A stretch of 64,000 nucleotides of DNA, from sequence record MF158044; one strand, written 5' to 3'. The position numbers and the translations under genes were made by a program. The notes beneath the pieces were generated by a model, which saw only the letters and a list, made by a program, of their open reading frames with translations, made no database searches and was not told the DNA's origin. This document shows positions 10,210-56,283 of the stretch, in pieces. How positions within the stretch are numbered: position 1 is the first letter of the stretch; each line of letters opens with the position of its first letter. This stretch comes from Shigella phage Sf18.

Positions 10210-10815
<606 letters not shown>

Positions 10816-10885
10816 TTAGTTGATTGTTAAGTTGTTTGTAAAGAACCCTCAACAGAAGACTCTTTAGAAACTTGGTAGATTTTTA

Positions 10886-11170
10886 ACGTGGCTACTACCA
10901 TCCACCCTTACCTCACTTTACCTAACCTGACCTTACCAGACCCAACCGGACACTACCCTACCTAGCGAAACCTCATTAAAAGACCCTTTTAAAGACCTTT
11001 TAAAAAGGTGAGTCTCATTTTAATGTAGCTGAGACTAACTACCCTCACCAAACCGGACCAGACCCAACCCAGCCATACCAGACCATACCACACCCAACCG
11101 AACCGAACCTTACCGAGCATCACTTAAAAACCCTCTTAAAAGACTCTTAAGTGATGCTGGTGAGTACCCG
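10886..11170. repeat. composite repeat module B (paralogue of module A)
   Basis: Same components as 9486-9744 (NNACC pentamer tracts, CATCACTTAA inverted repeat, CCTCATTAAAAGACCCTTTTAAAGACCTTTTAAAAAGG block) but with the two hairpin blocks in swapped order. Confidence 0.6.
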
Positions 11171-11377
11171 TTGGTTTATGCTGCTCAGTATACTCACCAA
11201 ATTTTCTATGTCAACAACTTTATATTAAAAATTCTCTGACTACTGCATTTACTACAAATGATAACAGAGTAAGGGCTAAGGCTGATTTGTATGTTATGCT
11301 TAACAGTTTACTTATGAAGTAAGATAATGATAAAACAACAAAAACAAACAGGATAATTGCGCTAAACATGCTAACCT

Positions 11378-25693: not shown

Positions 25694-25713
25694 CACCTGT
25701 AGGATTTAATATA

Positions 25714-27948
25714 ATGATTACTACTATTCGCAAATCAGACGGTACAATCGTACCATTCGAACCAGAACGTTTAAATAAATGGGCTTCATGGGCTGACAAG
25801 AGAGGAATTATCTGGTCAGAAGTTGTAATGGAAGCTATGAAGCGTGTCTATGAAGGTTGTACAACAAAAGAAATGCACCAAGCTATGATTGACGTTTGTA
25901 TTGATAAACAAACTCAAGAGTACTCTGATATGGCTGGGAGACTACTTCTTGGCATTATCTACAAAGAAGCTTTTGGTGGATTTACAAAGGTTCCTCAGTT
26001 ACTTCCATTTGTGATGAAGATGGAGCAGATGGGGCTTTGGGAACACATGGATTACACACCTGAAGAGATTGACTACTTACAAGGTCACATCGTACATTCG
26101 AAAGATATCTCTTATGGGTATGCAGTGCTGAAGCAGTTCCGTGATAAGTATGGAATCCGTGACATTAAAAGTGGTAAGCTGTTTGAGTCTCCACAGTTTA
26201 TGTTCATGGGTATGGCTATGAAAGCCTTTGAAAGACAGCCTAAACAGCGTCGTTTAGATGATGTTATTAAGCTCTACACATATCTATCTGACCTGAAGAT
26301 TAATGCCCCTACACCGTATCTGAATGGTCTGAGAGCTACAAAATCTGGCTACGCTTCATGCTGCCTAATTAAAGCAAATGATACTGCTGAATCTCTTGGC
26401 ATTGCTACAAAAGTAGCTTATGACATGACAACTAAGCAAGCAGGTATTGGTATGCTGATGGAGACCAGAACAATTGGTGATGGAATCCGACAAAACACTA
26501 TTGAGCATATGGGAAAACTCCCTTATTATAAGCTTGTACGTGCTGCTGTAGAGGCTAATAAGCAGAAGAGTCGTGGTGGTTCAGCTAATAACTTCTTCAC
26601 TGCATTAGACCCACAGATTGAGGATTTGCTACGCTTGAAGCACCCTACAACGGTTCCTGCAAAGCGTATTAATGAAATGGATTACTCATTTGGTGCAAAT
26701 GATTACTTCTGGCAATGTGTACAGTACGATACAGATTGGTTGCTATTCTCTTACAAAGATGCACCAAGACTGTATGATATGTTCTACACAGCAAGTGCTG
26801 ATGAATTTGCTATGGCAGTAGGTCACGCAGTTCATACAGGTGTTAAACATAAACGTGTAAAGGCTCGTGAAGTTGCCAAGTTGTTTATCCAGCAACGTTA
26901 TGCTACAGGGCGTATTTACCCGTTCTTTACTAACAACGCAAACTATCATACACCTTTCAAAGAACCTTTGAAAATGTCAAACCTGTGTATGGAGATTGTC
27001 TTACCAGTTCACGGTTTTGAGGATGAAAGAGACCTGTATAGCTACACAGCCAAGAAAGAAGACGGTGAAGTTGCTCTTTGCTTCTTAGCTAGTTTGGTTG
27101 CAGGGAGAATCACAGAAGATGAATACGCTGACGTTGCTTATTATGCTCTTGCAATGGTTGACTCCGTTATTGACCTTATGGATTATCCGTATCCGTCAAT
27201 GCGTAACCATGTTCAGAAACGTCGTTCTGTTGGTATTGGTCTTACTAATGTGGCTCATTACCTTGCGAAGAACTATGTGAATTACTCATCAAGGGCTGGT
27301 AAAACTAAACTTCATGAGTTGGCTGAGATGCACTCTTACTTCTTGCATGAAGCATCTTTAAGACTCGCAAAAGAGCGTGGTGTACCAGAGTACATGCAGT
27401 TTACTAAGTACCCTGACGGTTGGGTTCCACCAAAGACTGCTAACAAGAAAATTGATGAAAAGCACGATGCAAAACTTCGTTATGATTGGGATGACCTGTC
27501 ACATCGAATTAAAGAAAATGGTGGTATTCGTAACTCTGTGTTAGAGGCTTACATGCCTAATGAGAGTTCTTCTCTGGCAACTAACACGACAAACGGCCTG
27601 TACCCTATTCGTGACTTCATCTTAACTAAGAAGTCTGCAACTGGTAACGTTCTGTTTATTGTACCTGACTATGAAGAGTTGAAGTATGTATATGAAATTG
27701 CTTGGGATATTGACACATTTGATATGATTGATTGCTATGCAATTGTTCAAAAATTCACTGGTCAAGCTATCTCTTCAGATTTCTATGTTGACTACTCGAA
27801 GTCTAAGAAGGTATCATTAGAGCAAGCTTTGAAGTACATGATTTATGCAAACCTTGTTGGTTTGAAAACTATGTACTACCTTAACAGTCGTATCGGTGTT
27901 GGTAAATCAGCACTACAAGATGCCTACTGTGAGGGTTGCGGCGTTTAG
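25714..27948 (+). CDS. nrdA: ribonucleotide reductase class Ia large subunit
   Basis: 744 aa; N-terminal ATP-cone-like region, active-site Cys blocks (NLCMEI), C-terminal redox Cys pair (CEGCGV). Confidence 0.9.
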   Translation: MITTIRKSDGTIVPFEPERLNKWASWADKRGIIWSEVVMEAMKRVYEGCTTKEMHQAMIDVCIDKQTQEYSDMAGRLLLGIIYKEAFGGFTKVPQLLPFVMKMEQMGLWEHMDYTPEEIDYLQGHIVHSKDISYGYAVLKQFRDKYGIRDIKSGKLFESPQFMFMGMAMKAFERQPKQRRLDDVIKLYTYLSDLKINAPTPYLNGLRATKSGYASCCLIKANDTAESLGIATKVAYDMTTKQAGIGMLMETRTIGDGIRQNTIEHMGKLPYYKLVRAAVEANKQKSRGGSANNFFTALDPQIEDLLRLKHPTTVPAKRINEMDYSFGANDYFWQCVQYDTDWLLFSYKDAPRLYDMFYTASADEFAMAVGHAVHTGVKHKRVKAREVAKLFIQQRYATGRIYPFFTNNANYHTPFKEPLKMSNLCMEIVLPVHGFEDERDLYSYTAKKEDGEVALCFLASLVAGRITEDEYADVAYYALAMVDSVIDLMDYPYPSMRNHVQKRRSVGIGLTNVAHYLAKNYVNYSSRAGKTKLHELAEMHSYFLHEASLRLAKERGVPEYMQFTKYPDGWVPPKTANKKIDEKHDAKLRYDWDDLSHRIKENGGIRNSVLEAYMPNESSSLATNTTNGLYPIRDFILTKKSATGNVLFIVPDYEELKYVYEIAWDIDTFDMIDCYAIVQKFTGQAISSDFYVDYSKSKKVSLEQALKYMIYANLVGLKTMYYLNSRIGVGKSALQDAYCEGCGV

Positions 27949-28003
27949 TTTGAATAACTATGAGGGTCGTAAAAGACCCTCTAAAATTAACTTGGAGAAA
28001 GGT

Positions 28004-28279
28004 ATGCTAGATTTAATTCGCAATGCGAGAATACGTAGCAAAGATAACTCACTATATTTATTTTATATTCCAAGACGGTCTTTGTATTATATTGCAGACT
28101 TAGACTTAAAAGTTAAGATGCCAGATGGTTCTTGGAAAGAACATATACGATATATTGATTGTTTTAATCCAAAGCAAACATATGCAAGACCACTTGATAT
28201 GTTCAACAAGGACAAATGGGTTGTTATGACAACAACTGAAGCCAGAAACTTTCTAGATACAGGAATCTTACCAGAATGA
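28004..28279 (+). CDS. hypothetical protein inserted between nrdA and nrdB
   Basis: Start at Met with GGAGAAAGG SD; 91 aa; position matches the nrdA-nrdB gap occupied by mobE in T4. Confidence 0.35.
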   Translation: MLDLIRNARIRSKDNSLYLFYIPRRSLYYIADLDLKVKMPDGSWKEHIRYIDCFNPKQTYARPLDMFNKDKWVVMTTTEARNFLDTGILPE

Positions 28280-29349
28280 TTAACCCACATCCAATTTTCT
28301 TAGGCGGTGAACGAAAAACTTTCGATTCACTGAATAAACACTATCCAAAAATCTTTGAACTGTATAAGCAGCAGAAAGCACAAGACTGGTCTGAAGATGA
28401 GTTCCCATTTGAACAGTCACGTTTAGACTTTGAGAGTGTCCCTCAGTCAATGTCTGGTGTAATGCTTGAGATTCTGAAATGGCAATGGGAAGCAGATACA
28501 CAGGTTGCTAAGAGTTTAGCTTTTGCCTTTGCACCATTCATCTCTGATGATATCTATGCAACTGCTATCATGAAGCAATCAGAAATTGAGAACCTTCATG
28601 CACTAACTTATTCAGAGATTGTTCGTCAGTGTATCAAGAACCCTGAAACAATCCTTGATGAGATTAACCAGAATGCTGCTGTTCAGGACAGATTGAAGAC
28701 TGTGAACAGAGCACTGGCAGAATTACTTGACGAAGGTATTAACTATCGTTTAAGCTATGTTCGTCAAGAGTTAATGGAGAAAGACCCTTTACACTTCCAC
28801 AAAGTAATCTTGAAAGGTCTCTTTGCAGTAACAGCACTTGAGGGTATTTCCTTCATGGCATCCTTTGCATGTACCTTTGCACTTGATGCACAAGATAAAT
28901 TCCAAGGGATTGCACAAGCAGTACAGAAAATTATGCTTGACGAAATCATTCACACAAAGATTGATATCGAAGCATTAAAAGAAACTTTGAAAGATGAAGA
29001 GTGGCAAGAAGCTTTCCGTCAAGTACTCCCAGAAATTAAAGTAATTCTGGATGAAGTAGTTGAAAGTGAAGAGAAATGGTCTTATTATATCTTCTCTGAA
29101 GGACGTGCTGTTGTAGGTTTGAATACAAAACTTCTTCACGAATGGGTTTACTACAACGCTGCTCCATTGTATGATATGTTTGGTATTCCAAGAGACTTTG
29201 TAGCTCCTAAAGAACCACCTTTGAAATATATGATTAAGAAGATGGAAATTGATAAAGAGCAAAACGCTAACCAAGAACAACAAAATGGTGCGTACCTTTT
29301 GAATACTGTTGTTGATGATTTAAATTCAGGATTTTTAGAGGTTCCTTAA
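28276..29349 (+). CDS. nrdB: ribonucleotide reductase class Ia small subunit
   Basis: 357 aa; ferritin-like fold with E/H di-iron ligand blocks (EIENLHALTYSEI; LDEIIHTK). Confidence 0.85.
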   Translation: MINPHPIFLGGERKTFDSLNKHYPKIFELYKQQKAQDWSEDEFPFEQSRLDFESVPQSMSGVMLEILKWQWEADTQVAKSLAFAFAPFISDDIYATAIMKQSEIENLHALTYSEIVRQCIKNPETILDEINQNAAVQDRLKTVNRALAELLDEGINYRLSYVRQELMEKDPLHFHKVILKGLFAVTALEGISFMASFACTFALDAQDKFQGIAQAVQKIMLDEIIHTKIDIEALKETLKDEEWQEAFRQVLPEIKVILDEVVESEEKWSYYIFSEGRAVVGLNTKLLHEWVYYNAAPLYDMFGIPRDFVAPKEPPLKYMIKKMEIDKEQNANQEQQNGAYLLNTVVDDLNSGFLEVP

Positions 29350-29591
29350 TGACTTATGTAATTTACTCAAAAGATGGATGCCCACAGTGTGTGACTGCTA
29401 AGAACTTTGCTCAGGCTCGTGGCTTAGACCATGTTGTAAGAATGCTTGGGAAAGATTATGAGCTAAGTGACCTGATGGATATTGCAAAGATACCTGTTCG
29501 TCAGATGCCTTTCATTATGAAGGTTGAAGACAATGAAATGAAACCTGTTGGAACACTACAGAACTTTATGGCAGAGGTGAATAATGCTTAA
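29349..29591 (+). CDS. nrdH: glutaredoxin-like protein (NrdH-type)
   Basis: 80 aa; CPQC redox motif in SKDGCPQCV; directly downstream of nrdB. Confidence 0.6.
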   Translation: MTYVIYSKDGCPQCVTAKNFAQARGLDHVVRMLGKDYELSDLMDIAKIPVRQMPFIMKVEDNEMKPVGTLQNFMAEVNNA

Positions 29592-29784
29592 ACGTTTATG
29601 GGATGGTTTTGTTGAAGATGCTCCGATGATTGCTCTGGCATTCATGGTTACTAGCCTGTTTACTGATTTAAAACAAGGTGCTCTATTTGGAGCTATGCTA
29701 GTATGGGTTATCTTTGAGATATTAGATATCAAACATGATTTGAGTGGAAAGCTTAAAAAGCTTATTGAAAAGTTTTCTAAGTAG
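29584..29784 (+). CDS. small membrane protein
   Basis: 66 aa with hydrophobic core (MIALAFMVTSLF...AMLVWVIF). Confidence 0.3.
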   Translation: MLKRLWDGFVEDAPMIALAFMVTSLFTDLKQGALFGAMLVWVIFEILDIKHDLSGKLKKLIEKFSK

Positions 29785-29795
29785 AATTAATATAA

Positions 29796-29818
29796 GGGTC
29801 TCTTCGGAGACCTTTTTT
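29796..29818 (+). terminator. intrinsic terminator
   Basis: GGTCTC-TTCG-GAGACC hairpin followed by TTTTTT; same stem as terminator at 25671. Confidence 0.55.
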
Positions 29819-29833
29819 GCATTAGGAGTCAGA

Positions 29834-31978
29834 ATGGTTAAAGTACAAATTATTAAGAAAGACGGTTCACTGGAAAACCCAAATGTAAATAAAATCGTCG
29901 AAGCAGTTACCAAGTCAGCTAATAGAGTTGGCTACAAAGAGTTACCACTAGAAGTTATCCATGCTCTTGAATCAGCCTTTATGAGACTGCTTGTCAGAGC
30001 AACTAATCAGAATGCTATGCTCATCTCTGTAGATGATGTTCACAGTATTGTGGAAGGAACTCTGGCAGAGGTAAACCATGAAATCTATGAGTCATATTCA
30101 ACCTACAGAAACTATCGTAAAGAGGTTGCACAGAATTGGGATGAACTTTACCAGAAAACTAAAGACACACTCTTCTTAGGTGACCGTGAGAATGCTAACT
30201 TTGATAGTAGCTTAATCTCTACAAAAGGTTCAATCATCCGTGGGTATCTGACAAAAGAAATCTTTAAGCAGTATCACTTGACACCAGAAGAAGCAAGTGC
30301 TATTGAAGATGGTTTCATTTATATCCATGACTTAAGAGATTTAATCTTCGGTGGTATTAACTGTTGCTTGTTTGACATTGGAAGCGTCTTGAAAGGTGGT
30401 TTTGAAATGTCCGGCATTGAATACTGCGAACCAAAGTCTGTACTTTCAGCTTTACAGGTTATTGGTGACGTTGTACTCTCAGCAACTGCACAGCAATTTG
30501 GTGGATTTACTATCCCAGAGATTGACAAGGTTCTTGTGCCATATGCTAAGAAGTCTTTTGAGTATCATCTGGAGAAAGCAAAGCAGTATAATATCACAGG
30601 GAGAGGTGGTGCATACCACTATGCTAAAGAGCAACTCCAGATTGAACTGACCCAAGGTTTCCAATCTCTGGAAATGAAGCTAAACACTGTCCCTTGCAGC
30701 CGTGGTGACTTTGCATTTACAACATTAACATTTGGTTTACTTGAACCAGATATGGCTAGTGAAGACAACCGATTGCAATTTATGATTGCGAAGACTATTC
30801 TTGATGTGAGAATGAATGGTCAAGGTAAGTCTAAGAAGCCTGTTGTATTCCCTAAACTGGTTTACATTTATGATGAGACAAGACATATGCTAGACCCTTG
30901 GCAGGGAACTCTTTATGACAAAGCTATTGAGTGCTGTTCTAAAGCTATGTACCCAGACTTCTTAAGTGTTTCTGGTCATGGTTCTGTTGCAGAAGCTTTT
31001 GAGCGTTCAGGTGCAGTCATCTCTCCAATGGGTTGCAGAGCTTTCTTATCACCATATTATGATGAAGATGGTAAAGAGTTCTACACAGGGCGAGCAAACA
31101 TTGGTGCAGTATCTCTTAATCTGCCAATGATTTACAAGTATTCTGAAGAGAATTGTTTAGACTTCTGGACAGAACTTGACAAGTATCTTGAGATGATTAG
31201 AAGCTTCCATAAAAAACGTTATGAGATGATTGCTAATATGCCAGCAAGCTCTAACCCTCTAGCATTCACACAAGGTGGTTTGTATAAAGGTCATAAGAAG
31301 CCAACTGACAAGATTGGTTGGGATACTGTGAAATCTTTTACAGCCTCTTTTGGTGTCACTGCATTGGATGAGTTAACAGTACTTGCACAAGGTAAAAGAT
31401 TACATGAGTCAGACGGTGATATTGCAAGTAAGGTTTTAAACTACCTGAATGGCAAACTGGAGCAGTTTAAACAGGAAGATGGTTTCTTGTATGCCCTCTA
31501 TGGTACACCTGCTGAGAGCCTTTGTGGTACGCAATTGAAGCAGTTTAGAAACATGTTTGGAGTTGTTAAAGGTGTATCTGATAAAGAATACTTTACAAAC
31601 AGCTTCCACATGAATGTTGGTGCAGATATTACACCATTTGAAAAGCAAGACTTAGAAGAACCTTTCTTCCATGCTTGTAATGGTGGTCATATCCAGTACG
31701 TTCGTATTGCTAATCCAGAGAATCATAAAGCTATTAGGGCTTGTGTGACAAGAGGTATGGGTAAAGGTTTCTATCAAGGTGTTAACTTTGACTTGGCAAT
31801 CTGTGAGAATTGTGGTCACCGTCCAAGTGCAGATGTTGAATTGTGTCCTAAGTGCAACTCACACGATATCTCTGTGATTAACCGTGTTTGTGGTTATCTT
31901 GGCTGGACTAAGATTAAAGGTACTTCCAGAATGAATGATGCAAAAATTGCTGAAATTCAGGATAGAAAATCTATGTAA
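29834..31978 (+). CDS. nrdD: anaerobic ribonucleoside-triphosphate reductase (class III)
   Basis: Start at Met with GGAG SD (MVKVQIIKKDG); C-terminal Cys4 cluster (CENCGH...CPKCN) and glycyl-radical motif RVCGYLG. Confidence 0.9.
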   Translation: MVKVQIIKKDGSLENPNVNKIVEAVTKSANRVGYKELPLEVIHALESAFMRLLVRATNQNAMLISVDDVHSIVEGTLAEVNHEIYESYSTYRNYRKEVAQNWDELYQKTKDTLFLGDRENANFDSSLISTKGSIIRGYLTKEIFKQYHLTPEEASAIEDGFIYIHDLRDLIFGGINCCLFDIGSVLKGGFEMSGIEYCEPKSVLSALQVIGDVVLSATAQQFGGFTIPEIDKVLVPYAKKSFEYHLEKAKQYNITGRGGAYHYAKEQLQIELTQGFQSLEMKLNTVPCSRGDFAFTTLTFGLLEPDMASEDNRLQFMIAKTILDVRMNGQGKSKKPVVFPKLVYIYDETRHMLDPWQGTLYDKAIECCSKAMYPDFLSVSGHGSVAEAFERSGAVISPMGCRAFLSPYYDEDGKEFYTGRANIGAVSLNLPMIYKYSEENCLDFWTELDKYLEMIRSFHKKRYEMIANMPASSNPLAFTQGGLYKGHKKPTDKIGWDTVKSFTASFGVTALDELTVLAQGKRLHESDGDIASKVLNYLNGKLEQFKQEDGFLYALYGTPAESLCGTQLKQFRNMFGVVKGVSDKEYFTNSFHMNVGADITPFEKQDLEEPFFHACNGGHIQYVRIANPENHKAIRACVTRGMGKGFYQGVNFDLAICENCGHRPSADVELCPKCNSHDISVINRVCGYLGWTKIKGTSRMNDAKIAEIQDRKSM

Positions 31979-32047
31979 GTAGTTGACAAGGTGGTGTAGG
32001 TCTTGATAGGCTTACATCACCTTTTTTATTGAGTATGGAATTAACGT

Positions 32048-47045: not shown

Positions 47046-47204
47046 ATGGTTAAAGAAAACGATGTAATACAATACAAAGATTTAGACGGATACCCAAAAA
47101 TTGGTAAAGTCTTCTATCTCTATAAGTCTGCTATGGGTAATGATTGTATAGCCCTTACAAATGGCGACAAAATAACCATGAAAGATTTTATAAAAATTAA
47201 TTAA
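47046..47204 (+). CDS. small hypothetical protein (below track cut-off)
   Basis: 52-aa ORF found by eye; stop TAA fused to the type-A cassette; weak SD. Confidence 0.25.
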   Translation: MVKENDVIQYKDLDGYPKIGKVFYLYKSAMGNDCIALTNGDKITMKDFIKIN

Positions 47205-53390: not shown

Positions 53391-53654
53391 ATGAATAATC
53401 AAGAAATCACTATCCTGTTACAAATCGGTACTGACAAAGAAGATATCCAACTTTGCAAACGTATTGAAAGTGATTGGTTCAACGGTGAAATCATCGCAGA
53501 ATCTTATGAAGTAGTCGGATTCATGAATGGTGAAATTGTAAGCCATTTCGGTTTAACTAAATCTGAAGCCGTTGCAAAGTATGACGTTTTATCTTGTGAG
53601 ATTCTTACAAAATACAATGAAAAAAGACTTGCAACTTATGCAGCAATGAATTAA
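53391..53654 (+). CDS. small hypothetical protein (array gene)
   Basis: 87 aa; leader CCTAAACTGGAGACTAGAAAATG. Confidence 0.5.
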   Translation: MNNQEITILLQIGTDKEDIQLCKRIESDWFNGEIIAESYEVVGFMNGEIVSHFGLTKSEAVAKYDVLSCEILTKYNEKRLATYAAMN

Positions 53655-53657
53655 TAT
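53629..53657 (+). promoter_or_regulatory. type-B early promoter
   Basis: TTGCAA-N17-TAATAT, with TAA as the upstream stop; then TTTCAACGGGGAGGGAGACTTCCCC hairpin and leader. Confidence 0.45.
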
Positions 53658-53719
53658 TACTTTCAACGGGGAGGGAGACTTCCCCACTAACCTAAATTCC
53701 TAAACTGGAGAATCTGAAA

Positions 53720-53971
53720 ATGGCTACTATCCACGCAACTGTTAACAATTTTGGCTTCCATGTATTAGATGTTAAATTTGATATGGTTGGAACTGGCGAT
53801 GTTTTTGGCATGGTTGATATGTGTCTAAAAGCAACTATTCAGGACTACAATCAATCTGAGTGGTTCTGGAAAGAAGTAAAACAAGAAGTCTTAAAGGATG
53901 GCAAATCCTCTTACTATTGGGGTGATTCTCTTATCACGCTTTACTATGAAGTTGACGGCTTCAATAACTAA
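53720..53971 (+). CDS. small hypothetical protein (last array gene)
   Basis: 83 aa; cassette leader. Confidence 0.5.
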   Translation: MATIHATVNNFGFHVLDVKFDMVGTGDVFGMVDMCLKATIQDYNQSEWFWKEVKQEVLKDGKSSYYWGDSLITLYYEVDGFNN

Positions 53972-54012
53972 CAAGTCGCCGCAACGGGGCAAATAGCCCC
54001 AGACACCTTTAC

Positions 54013-54035
54013 AGCCCCTTAGATGGGGCTTTTTT
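54013..54035 (+). terminator. intrinsic terminator closing the rightward unit
   Basis: AGCCCC-TTAGAT-GGGGCT hairpin followed by TTTTT; a second hairpin CGGGGC-AAATA-GCCCC sits just upstream. Confidence 0.55.
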
Positions 54036-55581
54036 ACGTCTTCCTAGAATCTTACCATTGATTCGATAGAATCTATCCCATACATTTAGAATAATAACTC
54101 TATAGCTTACTCTATATCCTCTTATCAAATCAACTTAAATATAAGCCCATAACCCGAAAGGGAAGGGCAATCCCTAAAACGCTCTATAACGCTCTATACG
54201 GGCTTATCATCTCATCTTAAGCAATCATATTAACCTGCTCTTAAAAGCCCTTTATAGAGCTTTCTAGAGCCTTAAAAGAATCTTATAAGGGTATAAGCTT
54301 TATTATCTCGTTAGTATCTTGTGAATGGTTAAACAGGGGCTTGATAATAGCTTTAAAGTATGTTATGGAGTCTTCAAAGTAACGTAAAAGAACCTTAAAA
54401 GTAACGTAAAAGTTAGCCCCCTTTACATTCTCTTAACAAAATCTTAACAAATGCTACATAGTTATGCTTGTTAGCCCCTTGTTAAATCCTTGTTAGAGGT
54501 ATGTTAAGAGCTTGTTAGCCTCTTTGAAGTCCCTGTATAAGCCCCTAGAAAGCCCTATAAAGAGCTATACAGGTAGTTGGGGTGTAGTTACTAGGGAGAA
54601 CCTTAGAAGAGGCTATATAGAGCTATACAGAGCTTTTAAGAGGGCTTTATAGAGAATCACTAAGAAGGGAAGGGAACTATAGACCAAGAGATAGTGACCA
54701 TGTTAATAGCTTGTTAAAAAGGTTTAGAACTTGTTAGCACCTTGTTAATTATCTTAACAAAATAACTCTTAAGATTTAACTATTTAGCAACTTATAAGCA
54801 ACTTGTTAGACCCTTGTTAGTAGTGTTACAGACTGGTTAAGCTCTTGTTAGTTCTGTTAAGAGGCTGTTAAGAACTTTGAAGAGATGTTAAGAGCTTGAG
54901 AGAGTTGTTAAGAGATTGTTAATGATATTTTAAGATTTTGCAAAGGGGATGTTACAGGGCTGTTTAGGGCTACCAAGCAGATATACACCCTAAGTAGATA
55001 TTTTTCAGATTCTCCAAAGACCCTAAAAAGTAACCTACCTAGTCTATTTTATAAAAATTTTATAATTCTGAATAACTATCTATACACTATCTTATATAAA
55101 ACAGGAATTAACAGGCTTATAAGATACCTTGTTAGTACCGTGTTAGACCTTGTAGGATAAGCCTAAGAGGTTGATTCTTAAGAACAACCGAATCAACTAG
55201 AAGGGAATACCTGTTTAGTGTTATATAACAGTCTATATAGAGGCTTAGTAATACCTAGTGATTCTGCTATATAGGGTACTATCGTTTACCTAGAGATTAA
55301 GATGGCTATAGGGGCTTCTAAGGGGCTAGGAAGAGGTTAGGAAGGTGATTGTATAGGGTTGATTAATGGTAGGCTTAGAAGGCTTTATAGAGGGCTATAT
55401 AGAGAGCACTATTTAGGGACTAAGAGGTTATATAGATACTATATAATACTATATAGAGATGATGCTTAGAGAGGGTGTTTAGAAGGGTATAGATATTTTA
55501 TCACATATCATGGTGACCCAAGATGAACGGAGTGAATCCCAAATTTTATAAAAATTATAAATTTCGTAAATTTTACTCAAT
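54036..55581. repeat. ORF-free repeat-dense region (candidate origin, packaging or terminus region)
   Basis: No ORF of 60 aa or more on either strand across about 1.6 kb; dense short degenerate repeats (CTTGTTAG, GTTAAGAG, TATAGAGC, TTAGAAGG, AGTAACGTAAAAG x2) and AT-rich palindromes ATTTTATAAAAAT. Confidence 0.6.
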
Positions 55582-55602
55582 AAAAAGCCCCAATTAAGGG
55601 GC
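55582..55602 (-). terminator. intrinsic terminator closing the leftward unit
   Basis: On - strand GCCCC-TTAATT-GGGGC hairpin followed by TTTTT, directly after the stop of the 55612 gene. Confidence 0.5.
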
Positions 55603-55611
55603 TGTATAGTT

Positions 55612-56283
55612 TTACATCACTTCACTAAGCATAGTTTGCAATGAAGTTTTAGAAGTCTGGAAGAAGTGTGTGAACCCATTATGACGTTCTCTTACCTGAA
55701 TCATTATCTGGTCACCCTTAATCGGGTGTGAACTAATATGGTATTCATTCATGTTCAGTACAACACCCAAACCATCTATAATGTGTCTGAGTATGTCATA
55801 TTCAACAAATTCTTCTTTACCTGTGACCTTGATACAAACACCCTTGTTAGTTCTTTTAGGGTTTATATCTTCCATAACCAGCATTTGTTGTCCACCAAGA
55901 GAAATCATAGAGAACTCTTTACGGTTCTGCTGCTTAACATACATCTCGAGTTTCTTCAAAGTATCTTCATAGAACGGGTAAGACTTCTTGACAAAGATAC
56001 CTTCAAGTGGCTCTTTACCTGTTAGATTTCTACGATAATTCATCCGATGAATAAGACGATACAGGTCACTTTTCTCATCTTTGGTAAAGTGTCTGTCTAC
56101 ATCTTTAACACTAAATGTGATATAATTACTCTCAAGTTCAAACTTTTTCATCTCTATCAAATCCTTAAAGCATTTCTTAGTAATCGCTTCCCATTCTTCG
56201 GAGTTCTTTCTCTTCCTCTTCAGATGGGGAACCATATCTGCTAAGTTCTTCCAACTCTTCTTCAGTAGGTGTCCCATAATCAC
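55612..56283 (-). CDS. hypothetical protein
   Basis: 223-aa ORF, last gene of the leftward unit. Confidence 0.4.
   Translation of the reverse strand: MIMGHLLKKSWKNLADMVPHLKRKRKNSEEWEAITKKCFKDLIEMKKFELESNYITFSVKDVDRHFTKDEKSDLYRLIHRMNYRRNLTGKEPLEGIFVKKSYPFYEDTLKKLEMYVKQQNRKEFSMISLGGQQMLVMEDINPKRTNKGVCIKVTGKEEFVEYDILRHIIDGLGVVLNMNEYHISSHPIKGDQIMIQVRERHNGFTHFFQTSKTSLQTMLSEVM

What the first reader, a model, noticed from the sequence alone, without database searches (positions are those of the whole stretch)
53972..55611. 1.6-kb ORF-free, repeat-saturated region between convergent terminators
In a genome where genes abut or overlap, 1.6 kb has no ORF of 60 aa or more on either strand. It is bounded by terminators facing inward from both transcription units and is packed with short degenerate direct repeats (CTTGTTAG / TTGTTAA / GTTAAGAG runs at about 54460-54930; TATAGAGC / TTAGAAGG / CTATATAG runs at 54170-54660 and 55200-55500; AGTAACGTAAAAG twice at about 54378-54412) plus AT-rich palindromes (ATTTTATAAAAAT at about 55046 and 55541). 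Iteron-like repeats plus AT-rich unwinding-type elements fit a replication origin; a packaging site, physical genome terminus or non-coding RNA locus are alternatives. Nothing in the sequence alone decides between them.
Basis: seen in the sequence. Interest (0 to 1): 0.75.

Follow-up and report, generated by a model that had tools for sequence, protein, structure and literature searches.

The report
Phage genome ends with phased repeats
The 1.6-kb gene-free stretch is where the linear DNA of this Felix-O1-like phage begins and ends (a ~559-bp terminal repeat plus its flanks), which is already known for close relatives; what is new is that the repeat is built from helically phased TGTTA units that match the binding site of the host oxygen-response regulator ArcA.

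Summary
Window 53972-55611 is the largest ORF-free stretch (1640 bp; next largest 565 bp). It lies between convergent terminators and shows 10-11-bp periodicity (z 6-7.5).

Its listed alternative, a physical genome terminus, is strongly supported. The window is an Ounavirinae (Mooglevirus-like) phage. In relatives deposited with both ends, and in the published UAB_69 repeat sequence, the direct terminal repeat (DTR) begins at ...TA|GCCCCCTT and ends at GGGCTACC|AAGCAG. On the window that is 54416-54974, a 559-bp DTR collapsed to one copy.

The gap is a conservation island: 45-56% of columns are invariant across 19 genomes, against 3-24% in the flanking genes. TGTTA cores are 96-98% conserved and spacers 66-79%. 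DTR indels come in multiples of about 11 bp. An Erwinia Kolesnikvirus has the same architecture at the same syntenic site.

TGTTA direct repeats at 11-bp spacing are the published architecture of ArcA-P operators. A PWM built from 115 E. coli ArcA boxes finds 6 boxes of at least 15 bits in the DTR and 2 in the other 62 kb.

The terminus itself is known biology. The ArcA-box arrays are an untested lead, and binding was not shown.

The parts
54013..54036 (+). Rho-independent terminator ending the plus-strand unit of small early-type genes. Conserved hairpins precede it at 53976-53997.
   Evidence: stem AGCCCC/GGGGCT plus a T-run. Conserved in 8 genomes. It gives the only strong consensus structure in the alifold scan.
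54037..54415 (.). Left unique flank; in virion DNA it would sit just inside the right-hand DTR copy. It holds CTCTATA units in reverse orientation (54097-54117, 54179-54198) and TATAGAG/TAGAG units (54250-54270). It also holds the invariant AAAAGAATCTTATAAGG (54273-54289), a CCCGAAAGGG hairpin (about 54152-54161) and AGTAACGTAAAAG twice (54378, 54400), which abuts the DTR boundary.
   Evidence: (44.6% invariant columns in 19 genomes).
54416..54974 (.). Predicted direct terminal repeat, 559 bp with boundaries good to about 2 nt. It is present once in this assembly. Left boundary GTTA|GCCCCCTTTACATT; right boundary GGGCTACC|AAGCAGATATACA.
   Evidence: Homology mapping to the annotated 570-bp DTR of vB_CbrM_HP1. 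An exact 580-bp repeat sits at both ends of vB_EcoM_E9 with the same boundaries. Several further records begin at the same position, most of them carrying a second copy. The published UAB_69 DTR runs TAGCCCCC...GGGCTACCAA. 55.6% of columns are invariant.
54422..54450 (-). Three TGTTA-type units on the minus strand at 11-bp spacing, 6-35 nt from the left terminus. This is the best ArcA-box match in the window (17.2 and 20.6 bits, overlapping).
54467..54518 (+). Array A: five CTTGTTAR/TATGTTAA units at exactly 11-bp spacing.
   Evidence: (family D2).
54536..54655 (+). Central block of TATAGAG-type units at 10-bp spacing (CTATAAAGAG, CTATACAGG, GCTATATAGAG, CTATACAGAG, CTTTTAAGAG, GCTTTATAGAG).
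   Evidence: (families D1, D3).
54699..54761 (+). Array B: ATGTTAATAG CTTGTTAA ... CTTGTTAGCAC CTTGTTAA, followed by one reversed unit (TTAACAAA, 54754-54761). The invariant GTGACCATG sits just upstream at 54694.
   Evidence: (17.7 and 13.4 bits).
54791..54933 (+). Array C: about 13 consecutive units of TGTTA/TGTTAAGAG type at 9-11-bp spacing, running toward the right terminus. It ends in a three-unit high-scoring ArcA-type site at 54905-54933 (18.8 and 17.7 bits).
   Evidence: (families D2, D4, D6).
54975..55575 (.). Right unique flank, just inside the left-hand DTR copy in virion DNA. It begins with CAGATATACA. A module of TAGATATTTT, about 40 nt of spacer, then ATTTTATAAAAAT occurs twice, 495-497 bp apart (54995/55046 and 55490/55543). 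It also holds CTTGTTAGTACCGTGTTAGACCTTGT (55128-55153) and TATAGAG/TTAGAAGG arrays (55230-55460). TTTTATCACATATCATGGTGACC (55496-55518) is a consensus DnaA box in Felixounavirus but not here.
   Evidence: family D13; 52.6% invariant columns.
55576..55603 (-). Rho-independent terminator ending the minus-strand unit. The first gene of that unit is 55612-56283, 223 aa, PHROG 4330, function unknown.
   Evidence: (annotated as a terminator in phage Michonne).
54058..54080 (.). Small palindromic element (TTGATTCGATAGAATCTATCCCA) that sits at different positions of the gap in different relatives. A related 33-nt insert at 55165-55197 is unique to this phage among the 8 aligned.
   Evidence: alignment; note.

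Best explanation
The gap is the genome-terminus, or concatemer-junction, region of a Felix-O1-like (Ounavirinae, Mooglevirus-like) phage.

What is shown by homology: virion DNA of this group is linear with fixed ends and a short direct terminal repeat. On the window the repeat is 54416-54974 (559 bp), and the assembly has collapsed the two copies into one. The 444 bp to its left and 637 bp to its right are unique non-coding flanks, closed off by the terminators of the two converging transcription units.

What is inferred: replication produces concatemers with one repeat copy per junction. The packaging machinery recognises this region and cuts at or within about 2 nt of TA|GCCCCC on the left and GGGCTACC|AA on the right. 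The repeat is then duplicated so that each packaged genome carries it at both ends, as in T7-type short-DTR phages.

Also inferred: the roughly 30 TGTTA(A/G) units inside the repeat, and the TATAGAG-type units in and around it, are protein-binding sites placed on one face of the helix. Their cores are under purifying selection, the spacers are not, and units are gained or lost as whole helical turns. The protein that reads them is unknown. No small terminase subunit is recognisable in this group. By sequence the best candidate is the host response regulator ArcA-P, whose operators are exactly TGTTA direct repeats at 11-bp spacing. It would then act as an architectural host factor, as IHF does at lambda cos, or as a physiological input to end formation.
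For: Identity of the region:
- The closest relatives are Shigella phages Sf15 and Sf13, 95-97% identical over 53900-55700.
- HP1 (Mooglevirus) has repeat_region features annotated at 1-570 and 88766-89335. Its last plus-strand gene and first minus-strand gene are arranged as in the window, and its paper states direct repeats at both termini.
- The HP1 repeat maps to window 54416-54974.
- E9 (Felixounavirus) carries an exact 580-bp repeat at both ends, with the same boundary sequences.
- Records D4, I14.1, CRP22, ZX4221 and ECP2307 begin exactly at the DTR start and carry a second copy; H12 begins there with a single match; GE_vB_7A carries two copies with its ends 2-7 nt inside the boundaries.
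- The published UAB_69 DTR runs TAGCCCCC...GGGCTACCAA.
- PhageTerm DTRs of 581 and 613 bp are reported for Pr103Blw and Ro111lw.
- Felix O1 itself has the same 1622-bp gap between ORF23 and ORF24, and its paper inferred short terminal repeats and found no TerS.

Evidence for function:
- The gap is 81% identical to Felix O1, against 59% and 67% for the flanking gene regions.
- 45-56% of gap columns are invariant across 19 genomes, against 3% and 24% in the flanking genes. The neighbouring protein is only about 50% identical to its Felix O1 homologue.
- TGTTA cores are 96-98% conserved and spacers 66-79%.
- Almost all DTR indels of 5 nt or more are 10-11, 21-23 or 33 nt. DTR lengths step from 559 to 638 bp, mostly in increments of about 10-11 bp.
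- The Erwinia Kolesnikvirus Fifi106 has a 1487-bp convergent gap at the syntenic site. It shows 11-bp periodicity (z 7.4), 17 copies of TGTTAA and recognisable boundary homologues, but a different flank motif, CTTCTAA.

The ArcA lead:
- The published ArcA-P site is two or more TGTTA direct repeats at 11-bp centre-to-centre spacing, with 2-5 repeats per chromosomal site.
- All 11 matches to TGTTA-N6-TGTTA in the 64-kb window lie in the gap, 10 of them in the DTR, against 0.45 expected.
- A PWM from 115 published ArcA boxes gives 6 boxes of at least 15 bits in the 559-bp DTR and 2 in the other 62 kb, with a maximum of 20.6 bits.
- Each of the 19 DTRs holds 4-10 such boxes, with none in the 1.84 kb of flanks. 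In Fifi106, 7 of the 8 genome-wide hits lie in the gap.
- Motifs of other OmpR/PhoB-family regulators, and same-composition controls, give zero matches.
Against: - No reads from virion DNA of this particular phage are available, so its ends are inferred by homology only.
- The reported boundaries differ by 2 nt between PhageTerm-type records and the UAB_69 sequence.
- No hairpin or cruciform potential was found at either boundary, so a T7-style hairpin-primed duplication has no sequence support.
- The large terminase gene lies outside the window and was not examined.
- Nothing here shows that any protein binds the arrays. The spacers are more G+C-rich than the A/T-rich flanks of the ArcA consensus.
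- ArcA operators normally overlap sigma-70 promoters, and no convincing promoter is predicted in the gap.
- A phage-encoded protein with the same specificity cannot be excluded. About 24 kb of the genome lies outside the window, 3 Pfam families were not displayed, and many ORFs have no family.
- A replication function could coexist with the terminus.
Confidence: 0.75

Rival explanations
1. Replication origin. The phased direct repeats would be iterons for an initiator, and the two conserved ATTTTATAAAAAT palindromes would be unwinding elements. This could be the sole function, or an addition to the terminus.
For: There are many direct repeats. Two AT-rich palindromes are conserved in all 8 aligned genomes. 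A consensus DnaA box (TTATCCACA or TTATTCACA) lies about 40 nt from the second palindrome in 9 of 19 genomes. The phage has its own T7-like replisome (PolA, primase-helicase), so it must have an origin somewhere. From memory, ArcA-P is reported to bind E. coli oriC.
Against: The units are 10-11 bp, not the 17-22 bp typical of iterons. No initiator-like gene is adjacent: the flanking ORFs have no Pfam match and only PHROGs of unknown function. The window itself lacks a consensus DnaA box. The arrays sit precisely inside the mapped terminal repeat, which already accounts for their position. The GC-skew turn at this site simply follows the change in transcription direction.
Confidence: 0.15
2. 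The TGTTA arrays are not part of packaging. They would be a sponge or sensor for host ArcA-P, titrating the anaerobic repressor to reprogramme host carbon metabolism, or coupling phage development to host redox state. On this reading they merely occupy the one non-coding region available.
For: The arrays match the ArcA PWM better than most chromosomal sites: up to 20.6 bits here and 23.6 bits in relatives, against a training maximum of 21.4. There are about 10-19 boxes of at least 9 bits per repeat, and the repeat is present twice per genome. The motif is unchanged between E. coli and Erwinia phages while the flank motif diverged, as expected if a conserved host protein reads it. The phage carries both aerobic and anaerobic ribonucleotide reductases, so it is equipped for anaerobic hosts.
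Against: The arrays are confined to the DTR and extend to within 6 nt of the left end. Array length changes are quantised with DTR length, which suggests coupling to end structure. No binding or phenotype data exist, and no paper links ArcA with Felix O1.
Confidence: 0.12
3. A non-coding RNA locus. The gap would encode one or more structured RNAs, transcribed from internal promoters.
For: It is long, conserved, ORF-free sequence. Weak sigma-70-like matches exist.
Against: There is no Rfam match at E of 1 or below and no tRNA or tmRNA. Promoter-like hits do not exceed shuffles (7 found, 7.9 expected). Consensus folding of 19 genomes gives only -4 to -8 kcal/mol per 120 nt inside the gap, and the only strong structures are the boundary terminators. 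Conservation follows an 11-bp DNA-face pattern, not paired stems.
Confidence: 0.03
4. A decayed pseudogene, or a headful pac site with permuted ends.
For: None beyond the absence of ORFs. Early papers on some relatives did not determine the ends.
Against: No ORF is positionally conserved in 19 genomes, the longest being 60 aa. There is no 3-bp periodicity. The region is more conserved than the neighbouring genes. Records from independent laboratories share identical fixed ends, and PhageTerm reports classify relatives as DTR phages, not headful.
Confidence: 0.02

Closest known systems
Short direct terminal repeat and concatemer junction of T7-type phages (T7: 160-bp repeat, flanked by SRL/SRR arrays of CCTAAAG-like short repeats). 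The T7 details are from my own knowledge.
   Same: Fixed, non-permuted ends. A repeat of a few hundred bp or less lying in non-coding DNA. The repeat and its flanks are saturated with short degenerate direct repeats. PhageTerm classifies Felix-O1-like phages with this class.
   Different: The repeat is 3-4 times longer (559-638 bp). The units are helically phased (11 bp) and their number is quantised. No hairpin potential exists at the boundaries. The region lies between converging rather than outward-reading transcription units. The terminase is of a different lineage, and no small subunit is recognisable.
The same locus in sequenced Ounavirinae: vB_CbrM_HP1 repeat_region annotation, vB_EcoM_E9, the UAB_69 DTR sequence, and the PhageTerm reports for Pr103Blw and Ro111lw.
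   Same: Homologous sequence with identical boundary motifs and the same neighbouring genes. The window's region is simply this element in another isolate.
   Different: None of the papers found describes the internal array architecture, its conservation relative to the genes, the 11-bp quantisation or the ArcA-box match. The window's predicted repeat is the shortest of the 19 compared, at 559 bp.
ArcA-P operators of E. coli (Park et al. 2013, PMC3798270; Park and Kiley 2014, PMC4173790).
   Same: TGTTA core, direct orientation, 11-bp centre-to-centre spacing, and multiple adjacent elements. PWM scores are equal to or above those of ChIP-supported chromosomal boxes.
   Different: Chromosomal sites have 2-5 elements and overlap sigma-70 promoters. 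Here there are runs of 5 and about 13 elements, around 25-30 in 559 bp, with no promoter, in a phage terminal repeat, and with more G+C-rich spacers. Binding is untested.
Lambda cos with its IHF site, and Xer recombination at psi of pSC101 with ArcA as accessory factor: host DNA-binding proteins used as architectural cofactors by mobile elements. Both are from my own knowledge.
   Same: A host protein site embedded in a cis-acting DNA-processing region would be the same logic.
   Different: Cos gives cohesive ends, not a DTR, and it uses one or two host-factor sites rather than dozens. No evidence here shows that any host factor acts.
Repeat-rich and palindrome-rich non-coding region in the long terminal repeat of T5 (the injection-stop-signal region). 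From my own knowledge.
   Same: A dense cluster of direct and inverted repeats, with DnaA-box-like sequences, in non-coding DNA inside or next to a terminal repeat.
   Different: The T5 repeat is about 10 kb and carries genes. Two-step DNA transfer is not known for Felix-O1-like phages.

Membership tests
Short-DTR (T7-type) genome terminus | The same sequence is present as an exact direct repeat at both ends of the linear virion genome. | tested here: met
   Met for the homologous sequence in relatives. HP1 has 570 bp annotated at both ends. E9 has an exact 580-bp repeat at both ends. D4, I14.1, CRP22, ZX4221, ECP2307 and GE_vB_7A carry two copies, at or within a few nucleotides of the record ends. 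The UAB_69 repeat sequence is published.
Short-DTR (T7-type) genome terminus | This phage's own virion DNA ends at these positions, shown by read-start peaks and doubled coverage. | not testable with these tools
   No sequencing reads are available. The window holds a single copy, consistent with a collapsed assembly.
Short-DTR (T7-type) genome terminus | The boundary sequences are conserved in the window. | tested here: met
   GTTA|GCCCCCTTTACATT at 54412-54429 and GGGCTACC|AAGCAGATATACA at 54967-54987 align with the HP1 and E9 boundaries. TAGCCCC is invariant in 19 genomes. The invariance of the right motif is partly by construction, because it was the search pattern.
Short-DTR (T7-type) genome terminus | The ends are fixed, not circularly permuted. 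| not testable with these tools
   Literature only: PhageTerm DTR calls for Pr103Blw, Ro111lw, the Philippine coliphages and the Fifi phages. Identical record starts from independent laboratories support this.
Short-DTR (T7-type) genome terminus | A large terminase subunit of a DTR-type lineage. | not tested
   The TerL gene lies outside the window. In E9 it is about 16 kb from the left end. No phylogeny was made.
Iteron-type replication origin | Tandem iterons of about 17-22 bp that bind a cognate initiator encoded nearby. | tested here: not met
   The units are 10-11 bp. The flanking ORFs have no Pfam family and only PHROGs of unknown function.
Iteron-type replication origin | DnaA boxes or IHF sites next to an AT-rich unwinding element. 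| tested here: inconclusive
   Two conserved AT-rich palindromes are present. A consensus DnaA box occurs in 9 of 19 relatives but not in the window. One IHF-consensus match lies only in a window-specific insert.
Iteron-type replication origin | The region supports initiation of replication. | not testable with these tools
   This needs marker-frequency analysis or an ori-cloning assay.
ArcA-P operator | Two or more TGTTA elements in direct orientation at 11-bp centre-to-centre spacing. | tested here: met
   There are 11 matches to TGTTA-N6-TGTTA, all in the gap and 10 in the DTR, against 0.45 expected. Definition taken from PMC4173790 and PMC3798270.
ArcA-P operator | A score at or above the published thresholds, using a PWM rebuilt here from 115 of the 128 published ArcA boxes (9 bits is the weakest ChIP-supported box; 15 bits is the genome-scan cutoff). 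| tested here: met
   14 boxes reach 9 bits and 6 reach 15 bits in the 559-bp DTR, with a maximum of 20.6 bits. Only 2 boxes reach 15 bits in the remaining 62 kb. The pattern holds in 19 relatives and in an Erwinia phage.
ArcA-P operator | The site overlaps sigma-70 promoter elements, as is typical of ArcA-repressed operons. | tested here: not met
   Promoter-like matches in the region do not exceed shuffles, and none coincides with the arrays apart from a weak 9/12 match at 54433-54462.
ArcA-P operator | The site is bound by phosphorylated ArcA in vitro or in vivo. | not testable with these tools
   This needs EMSA or footprinting, or ChIP during infection.
Known RNA families (Rfam) and tRNA/tmRNA | A covariance-model or ARAGORN match. 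| tested here: not met
   No Rfam match at E of 1 or below in 53500-56000. No tRNA or tmRNA in the window.

The most novel reading that the evidence does not exclude
The terminal repeat of Felix-O1-like phages would be a giant array of binding sites for the host redox-responsive regulator ArcA-P. There are about 25-30 TGTTA elements at 11-bp phase, and their number is quantised in whole helical turns. The arrays are conserved from E. coli, Salmonella, Shigella and Citrobacter phages to Erwinia phages, while the other repeat family diverges. ArcA-P filaments on the repeat would act as the missing 'small-terminase-like' architectural factor for end recognition and duplication. Alternatively they would couple packaging or replication to the oxygen status of the host, or titrate ArcA. 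That would be a host two-component regulator built into the physical ends of a virulent phage genome.
Probability: 0.3. Interest if true: 0.75.

Novelty: new member of a known kind. Interest (0 to 1): 0.45.

Why it matters
As a terminus, the result is practical rather than surprising. It tells annotators where this genome should be opened and that about 559 bp is missing from the assembly as a second copy. It also explains why 1.6 kb carries no genes.

Four things would matter if followed up. First, the non-coding terminus is the most conserved DNA in this part of the genome across three genera. Second, it is built from helically phased units whose number changes only in whole turns. Third, no small terminase subunit is known for this widely used group of typing and therapy phages (Felix O1 and its relatives), so how the ends are recognised is an open question. 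Fourth, the dominant unit is indistinguishable from the operator of a host global regulator. This last point gives a cheap, direct experiment: ArcA-P footprinting, and phage growth on arcA/arcB mutants with and without oxygen. The outcome could link phage DNA packaging or replication to host physiology in the gut.

Tried and rejected
- I first assumed the gap corresponded to the Felix O1 ORF79/ORF80 convergent junction. That junction has only 43 bp. The right homologue is ORF23/ORF24.
- Rfam, tRNA and tmRNA searches found nothing.
- A sliding RNAalifold scan on 19 genomes found only the boundary terminators. Its z-scores were unstable because shuffled controls fold to about 0 kcal/mol.
- DNA folding at the two DTR boundaries and at the two AT-rich palindromes gave no significant hairpins.
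- DnaA-box and IHF scans gave a DnaA box only in Felixounavirus, and one IHF match inside a window-specific insert.
- The flanking ORFs have no informative family in Pfam or PHROGs.
- I looked for a small terminase next to TerL in the Pharokka-annotated relative E9 and found none. The upstream ORFs are DUF7217, DUF7338 and unknown PHROGs.
- I looked for a phage-encoded OmpR/PhoB-type DNA-binding domain among 106 window ORFs and found none among the families displayed; the only DNA-binding family seen was one Xre-type HTH. Three families were not displayed.
- The third ATTTTATAAAAAT copy, at 47185, lies within a listed 54-aa ORF and was dismissed as chance.
- The first 910 bp of the Fifi106 record looked like a candidate terminus but reads as unannotated coding sequence. 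The real gap is at 70006-71492.
- Literature searches for a description of this region, or for a link between ArcA and Felix O1, found none.
- REP10, KMM2 and BPS15Q2 open near the DTR but not at it, so they were not used as evidence for the boundaries.
Full report
**1. The observation.** Window 53972-55611 has no ORF of 60 aa or more on either strand. It is the largest such stretch in the 64-kb window, at 1640 bp against 565 bp for the next. Terminator-like hairpins with T-runs face inward at 54013-54030 (+) and 55603-55586 (-), and relatives annotate them as terminators.

The quoted motifs are at the stated places. Their excess is large:
- YTTGTTAR has 42 matches against 21.8 expected, a third of them within 700 bp.
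- CTWTAYAGAG has 10 matches against 0.8 expected, 8 of them in the gap.
- TGTTA occurs at 34 per kb in the central 559 bp, against 2 per kb overall.

Base autocorrelation peaks at lags 10-11 (z 6.2 and 7.5), 20-22 and 31-32, with none of the 3-bp signal of coding DNA. It can also be sharpened: the repeats are helically phased units.

**2. What phage this is.** The region is 95-97% identical to Shigella phages Sf15 and Sf13. It is 85-92% identical to Citrobacter phages Michonne, Mordin and Moogle (Ounavirinae, Mooglevirus). It is recognisable in 254 phage records, including Felixounavirus and Suspvirus.

Felix O1 itself has a 1622-bp unannotated gap at the same place, between ORF23 and ORF24. 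It is not the ORF79/80 junction, as I first assumed. The window runs from the tail-fibre genes through the DNA-metabolism and early genes to this gap and beyond.

**3. The gap contains the physical ends of the genome.** Citrobacter phage vB_CbrM_HP1 is deposited as a linear genome with repeat_region features at 1-570 and 88766-89335. Its paper states that it has direct repeats at both termini. Its last plus-strand gene, 472 bp of spacer, the repeat, 638 bp of spacer and its first minus-strand gene reproduce the layout of the window's gap. The repeat aligns to window 54416-54974.

Escherichia phage vB_EcoM_E9 belongs to a different genus and came from a different laboratory, whose announcement reports PhageTerm-determined termini. 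It carries an exact 580-bp repeat at both ends. Its boundary sequences are the same...ACGTAAAnnCTA|GCCCCCTTAACATT on the left and ...GTTAAGGGCTACC|AAGCAGATATACA on the right.

Records D4, I14.1, CRP22, ZX4221 and ECP2307 start exactly at that position and hold a second copy; H12 starts there with a single match; GE_vB_7A holds two copies with its ends 2-7 nt inside the boundaries. The published repeat of Salmonella phage UAB_69 reads TAGCCCCCTTAACAT...GGGCTACCAA, which is the same boundaries 2 nt wider on each side. PhageTerm reports of 581 bp (Pr103Blw) and 613 bp (Ro111lw) fit. The Felix O1 paper had already inferred short terminal repeats.

By homology, the window's virion DNA should therefore start at about 54416 and end at about 54974, carrying that 559-bp segment at both ends. 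The assembly shows one copy. This step is shown for relatives and inferred for this phage.

**4. The region is under selection as DNA.**
- Against Felix O1, the gap is 81% identical (ignoring indels). The 5 kb of genes to its left is 59% identical and the 7 kb to its right 67%.
- In a 19-genome alignment, 44.6%, 55.6% and 52.6% of columns are invariant in the left flank, repeat and right flank. The adjoining gene ends give 3% and 24%.
- The protein encoded next to the gap is only about 50% identical between this phage and Felix O1.
- No ORF is conserved in position in any of the 19 gaps, which span 1606-1811 bp. The longest ORF is 60 aa.
- Conservation has the period of the repeats: TGTTA cores are 96-98% conserved and the six bases between them 66-79%.
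- Inside the repeat, almost all indels of 5 nt or more are 10-11, 21-23 or 33 nt. Repeat lengths across genomes run from 559 to 638 bp, mostly in steps of about 10-11 bp (559, 570, 580, 591, 601, 613, 623, 633...). The lengths reported in the literature match this series.

Units are thus gained and lost as whole helical turns. Replication slippage between units would produce that, and so would selection for phase. I cannot separate the two.

**5. Anatomy.**
- *Repeat, left end:* three reversed units (TTTACA, TTAACA, TTAACA; 54422-54450).
- *Repeat, interior:* five forward units at exactly 11 bp (54467-54518). Then a central block of TATAGAG-type units at 10 bp (54536-54655). Then a second forward group (54699-54761). 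Then a run of about 13 forward units (54791-54933) that continues, through GATGTTACA and GCTGTTTAG, to the right end.
- *Symmetry:* read inward from either physical end, the DNA therefore begins with the same kind of unit (repeat finder I2).
- *Left flank:* CTCTATA units and a doubled AGTAACGTAAAAG abutting the boundary.
- *Right flank:* a module of TAGATATTTT, about 40 nt, then ATTTTATAAAAAT, present twice about 496 bp apart, plus TATAGAG and TTAGAAGG arrays.
- *Boundaries:* no significant hairpin forms at either one.

**6. Depth of conservation.** Erwinia phage Fifi106 (Kolesnikvirus, 43% G+C) does not match by DNA search. It nevertheless has a 1487-bp convergent gap at the syntenic position. 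That gap shows 11-bp periodicity (z 7.4 at lag 11, 7.0 at lag 22) and 17 copies of TGTTAA. It also has recognisable boundary homologues: TTAGCCACTTTTACATTTCGTTAACAAC and GCGGCCACTAAGTAGATATACA. Its flank repeat is CTTCTAA(G) rather than CTCTATA/TATAGAG. PhageTerm also suggested short DTRs for that phage. One repeat family has therefore stayed fixed across genera and hosts, while the other has changed.

**7. Who reads the units?** No small terminase subunit is recognisable. None was found in the Felix O1 paper. None appears next to TerL in a Pharokka-annotated relative.

The fixed unit, TGTTA in direct orientation at 11-bp centre-to-centre spacing, is the published definition of the E. coli ArcA-P binding site. 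Chromosomal sites hold 2-5 such elements.
- All 11 matches to TGTTA-N6-TGTTA in the window lie in the gap, 10 of them in the repeat, against 0.45 expected.
- A weight matrix built from 115 of the 128 ChIP-supported ArcA boxes (Park et al. 2013, Table S3) finds 14 boxes of at least 9 bits and 6 of at least 15 bits in the 559-bp repeat. The maximum is 20.6 bits. Only 2 boxes reach 15 bits in the other 62 kb. Shuffles of the gap give 0.6 boxes of at least 12 bits, against 10 observed.
- Each of the 19 repeats has 4-10 boxes of at least 15 bits, up to 23.6 bits, with none in the 1.84 kb of flanks. In Fifi106, 7 of the 8 genome-wide hits lie in the gap.
- Motifs of PhoP, PhoB, CpxR and OmpR type, and same-composition controls, give no match.
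- Pfam finds no OmpR/PhoB-type DNA-binding domain among the families displayed for 106 window ORFs. Three families were not displayed, and 24 kb of the genome is outside the window.

This is a sequence-level match only. It is not evidence of binding. The spacers are more G+C-rich than the ArcA consensus, and the arrays do not overlap a promoter as chromosomal ArcA sites usually do. No paper in the library connects ArcA with Felix O1.

**8. Most likely mechanism.**
- *Shown:* the gap is the terminus region, and its middle is the terminal repeat.
- *Inferred from what is established for short-DTR phages:* concatemers carry one repeat per junction. The packaging enzyme cuts at the two boundaries. 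The repeat is copied so that both ends carry it.
- *Inferred from the conservation pattern:* the phased units are protein-binding sites on one face of the helix that organise this reaction.

Rivals are given with their tests. A replication origin is possible as an added role and is not supported as the main one. An ArcA sponge or sensor unrelated to packaging is a second rival. A non-coding RNA, a pseudogene and a headful pac site are all disfavoured.

**9. Comparison and novelty.** The element works like, and by the tested features belongs with, T7-type short-DTR termini. The same locus has already been annotated or published as the DTR in several relatives, so the terminus itself is known biology and this is a further member.

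In the literature I could search, I found no description of four things: the status of the region as a conservation island, the 11-bp quantisation, the persistence of the TGTTA arrays into Erwinia phages, or their identity with the ArcA operator model. That last lead is the only part a specialist would find surprising, and it is cheaply testable.

**10. Verdict.**
- Observation: confirmed.
The preferred reading, an origin, is not supported. The listed alternative, a terminus, is.
- Interest: 0.45 overall. The terminus is ordinary. The array architecture and the ArcA match raise the score, but they rest on sequence alone.

Noticed in passing
window 54058-54080 and 55165-55197; homologous gaps of HP1, Michonne, Moogle, SUSP1, SUSP2 (alignment): A roughly 20-30-nt palindromic element (core GATAGAwTCTATC with GATTCGA/TCGAATC) sits at different places in the gap in different phages. 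In three of them it lies inside the loop of the right-hand terminator. The window has one copy plus a related 33-nt insert that none of the other 7 has. It looks like a tiny mobile or recombination-prone palindrome.
   Followed up: partly
window 10813-11377: This is the second-largest ORF-free stretch (565 bp), downstream of the DNA ligase gene in the minus-strand unit. It has two blocks of ACC/CCA-rich quasi-periodic sequence. Each block is followed by a CTTTTAAAGAC-type element and a hairpin.
   Followed up: no
GenBank GU169904.1 (Staphylococcus phage SA1), about 135.9-137.1 kb: A 147-kb Staphylococcus phage record contains a 75-90% identical copy of this Felix-O1-type terminus region. It is probably a chimeric or contaminated assembly.
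   Followed up: no
window, roughly 25700-32000 and neighbouring ORFs (families reported): The phage encodes both aerobic (class I, large and small chain) and anaerobic (NrdD plus radical-SAM activase) ribonucleotide reductases, so it is equipped for anaerobic hosts. This is relevant background for the ArcA lead but is not evidence for it.
   Followed up: no
window 55496-55505 and the homologous position in 19 genomes: A consensus DnaA box (TTATCCACA or TTATTCACA) is present about 40 nt upstream of the second AT-rich palindrome in 9 of 19 genomes, all of the Felix-O1-like sequence type. A one-base deletion spoils it in the Mooglevirus- and Suspvirus-type sequences, including the window.
   Followed up: partly
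L049 (OR284297.1) 1-910: The first 910 bp of the Erwinia phage Fifi106 record carry no annotated feature, yet they read like the 3' part of a minus-strand coding sequence. The deposited version is also marked circular and is not opened at the PhageTerm terminus described in its paper.
   Followed up: no
DTR region of 19 Ounavirinae genomes: Terminal-repeat length varies from 559 to 638 bp, mostly in steps of about 10-11 bp. The window's predicted repeat is the shortest, lacking one CTTATTAGAGA unit after 54466 that most relatives have.
   Followed up: yes
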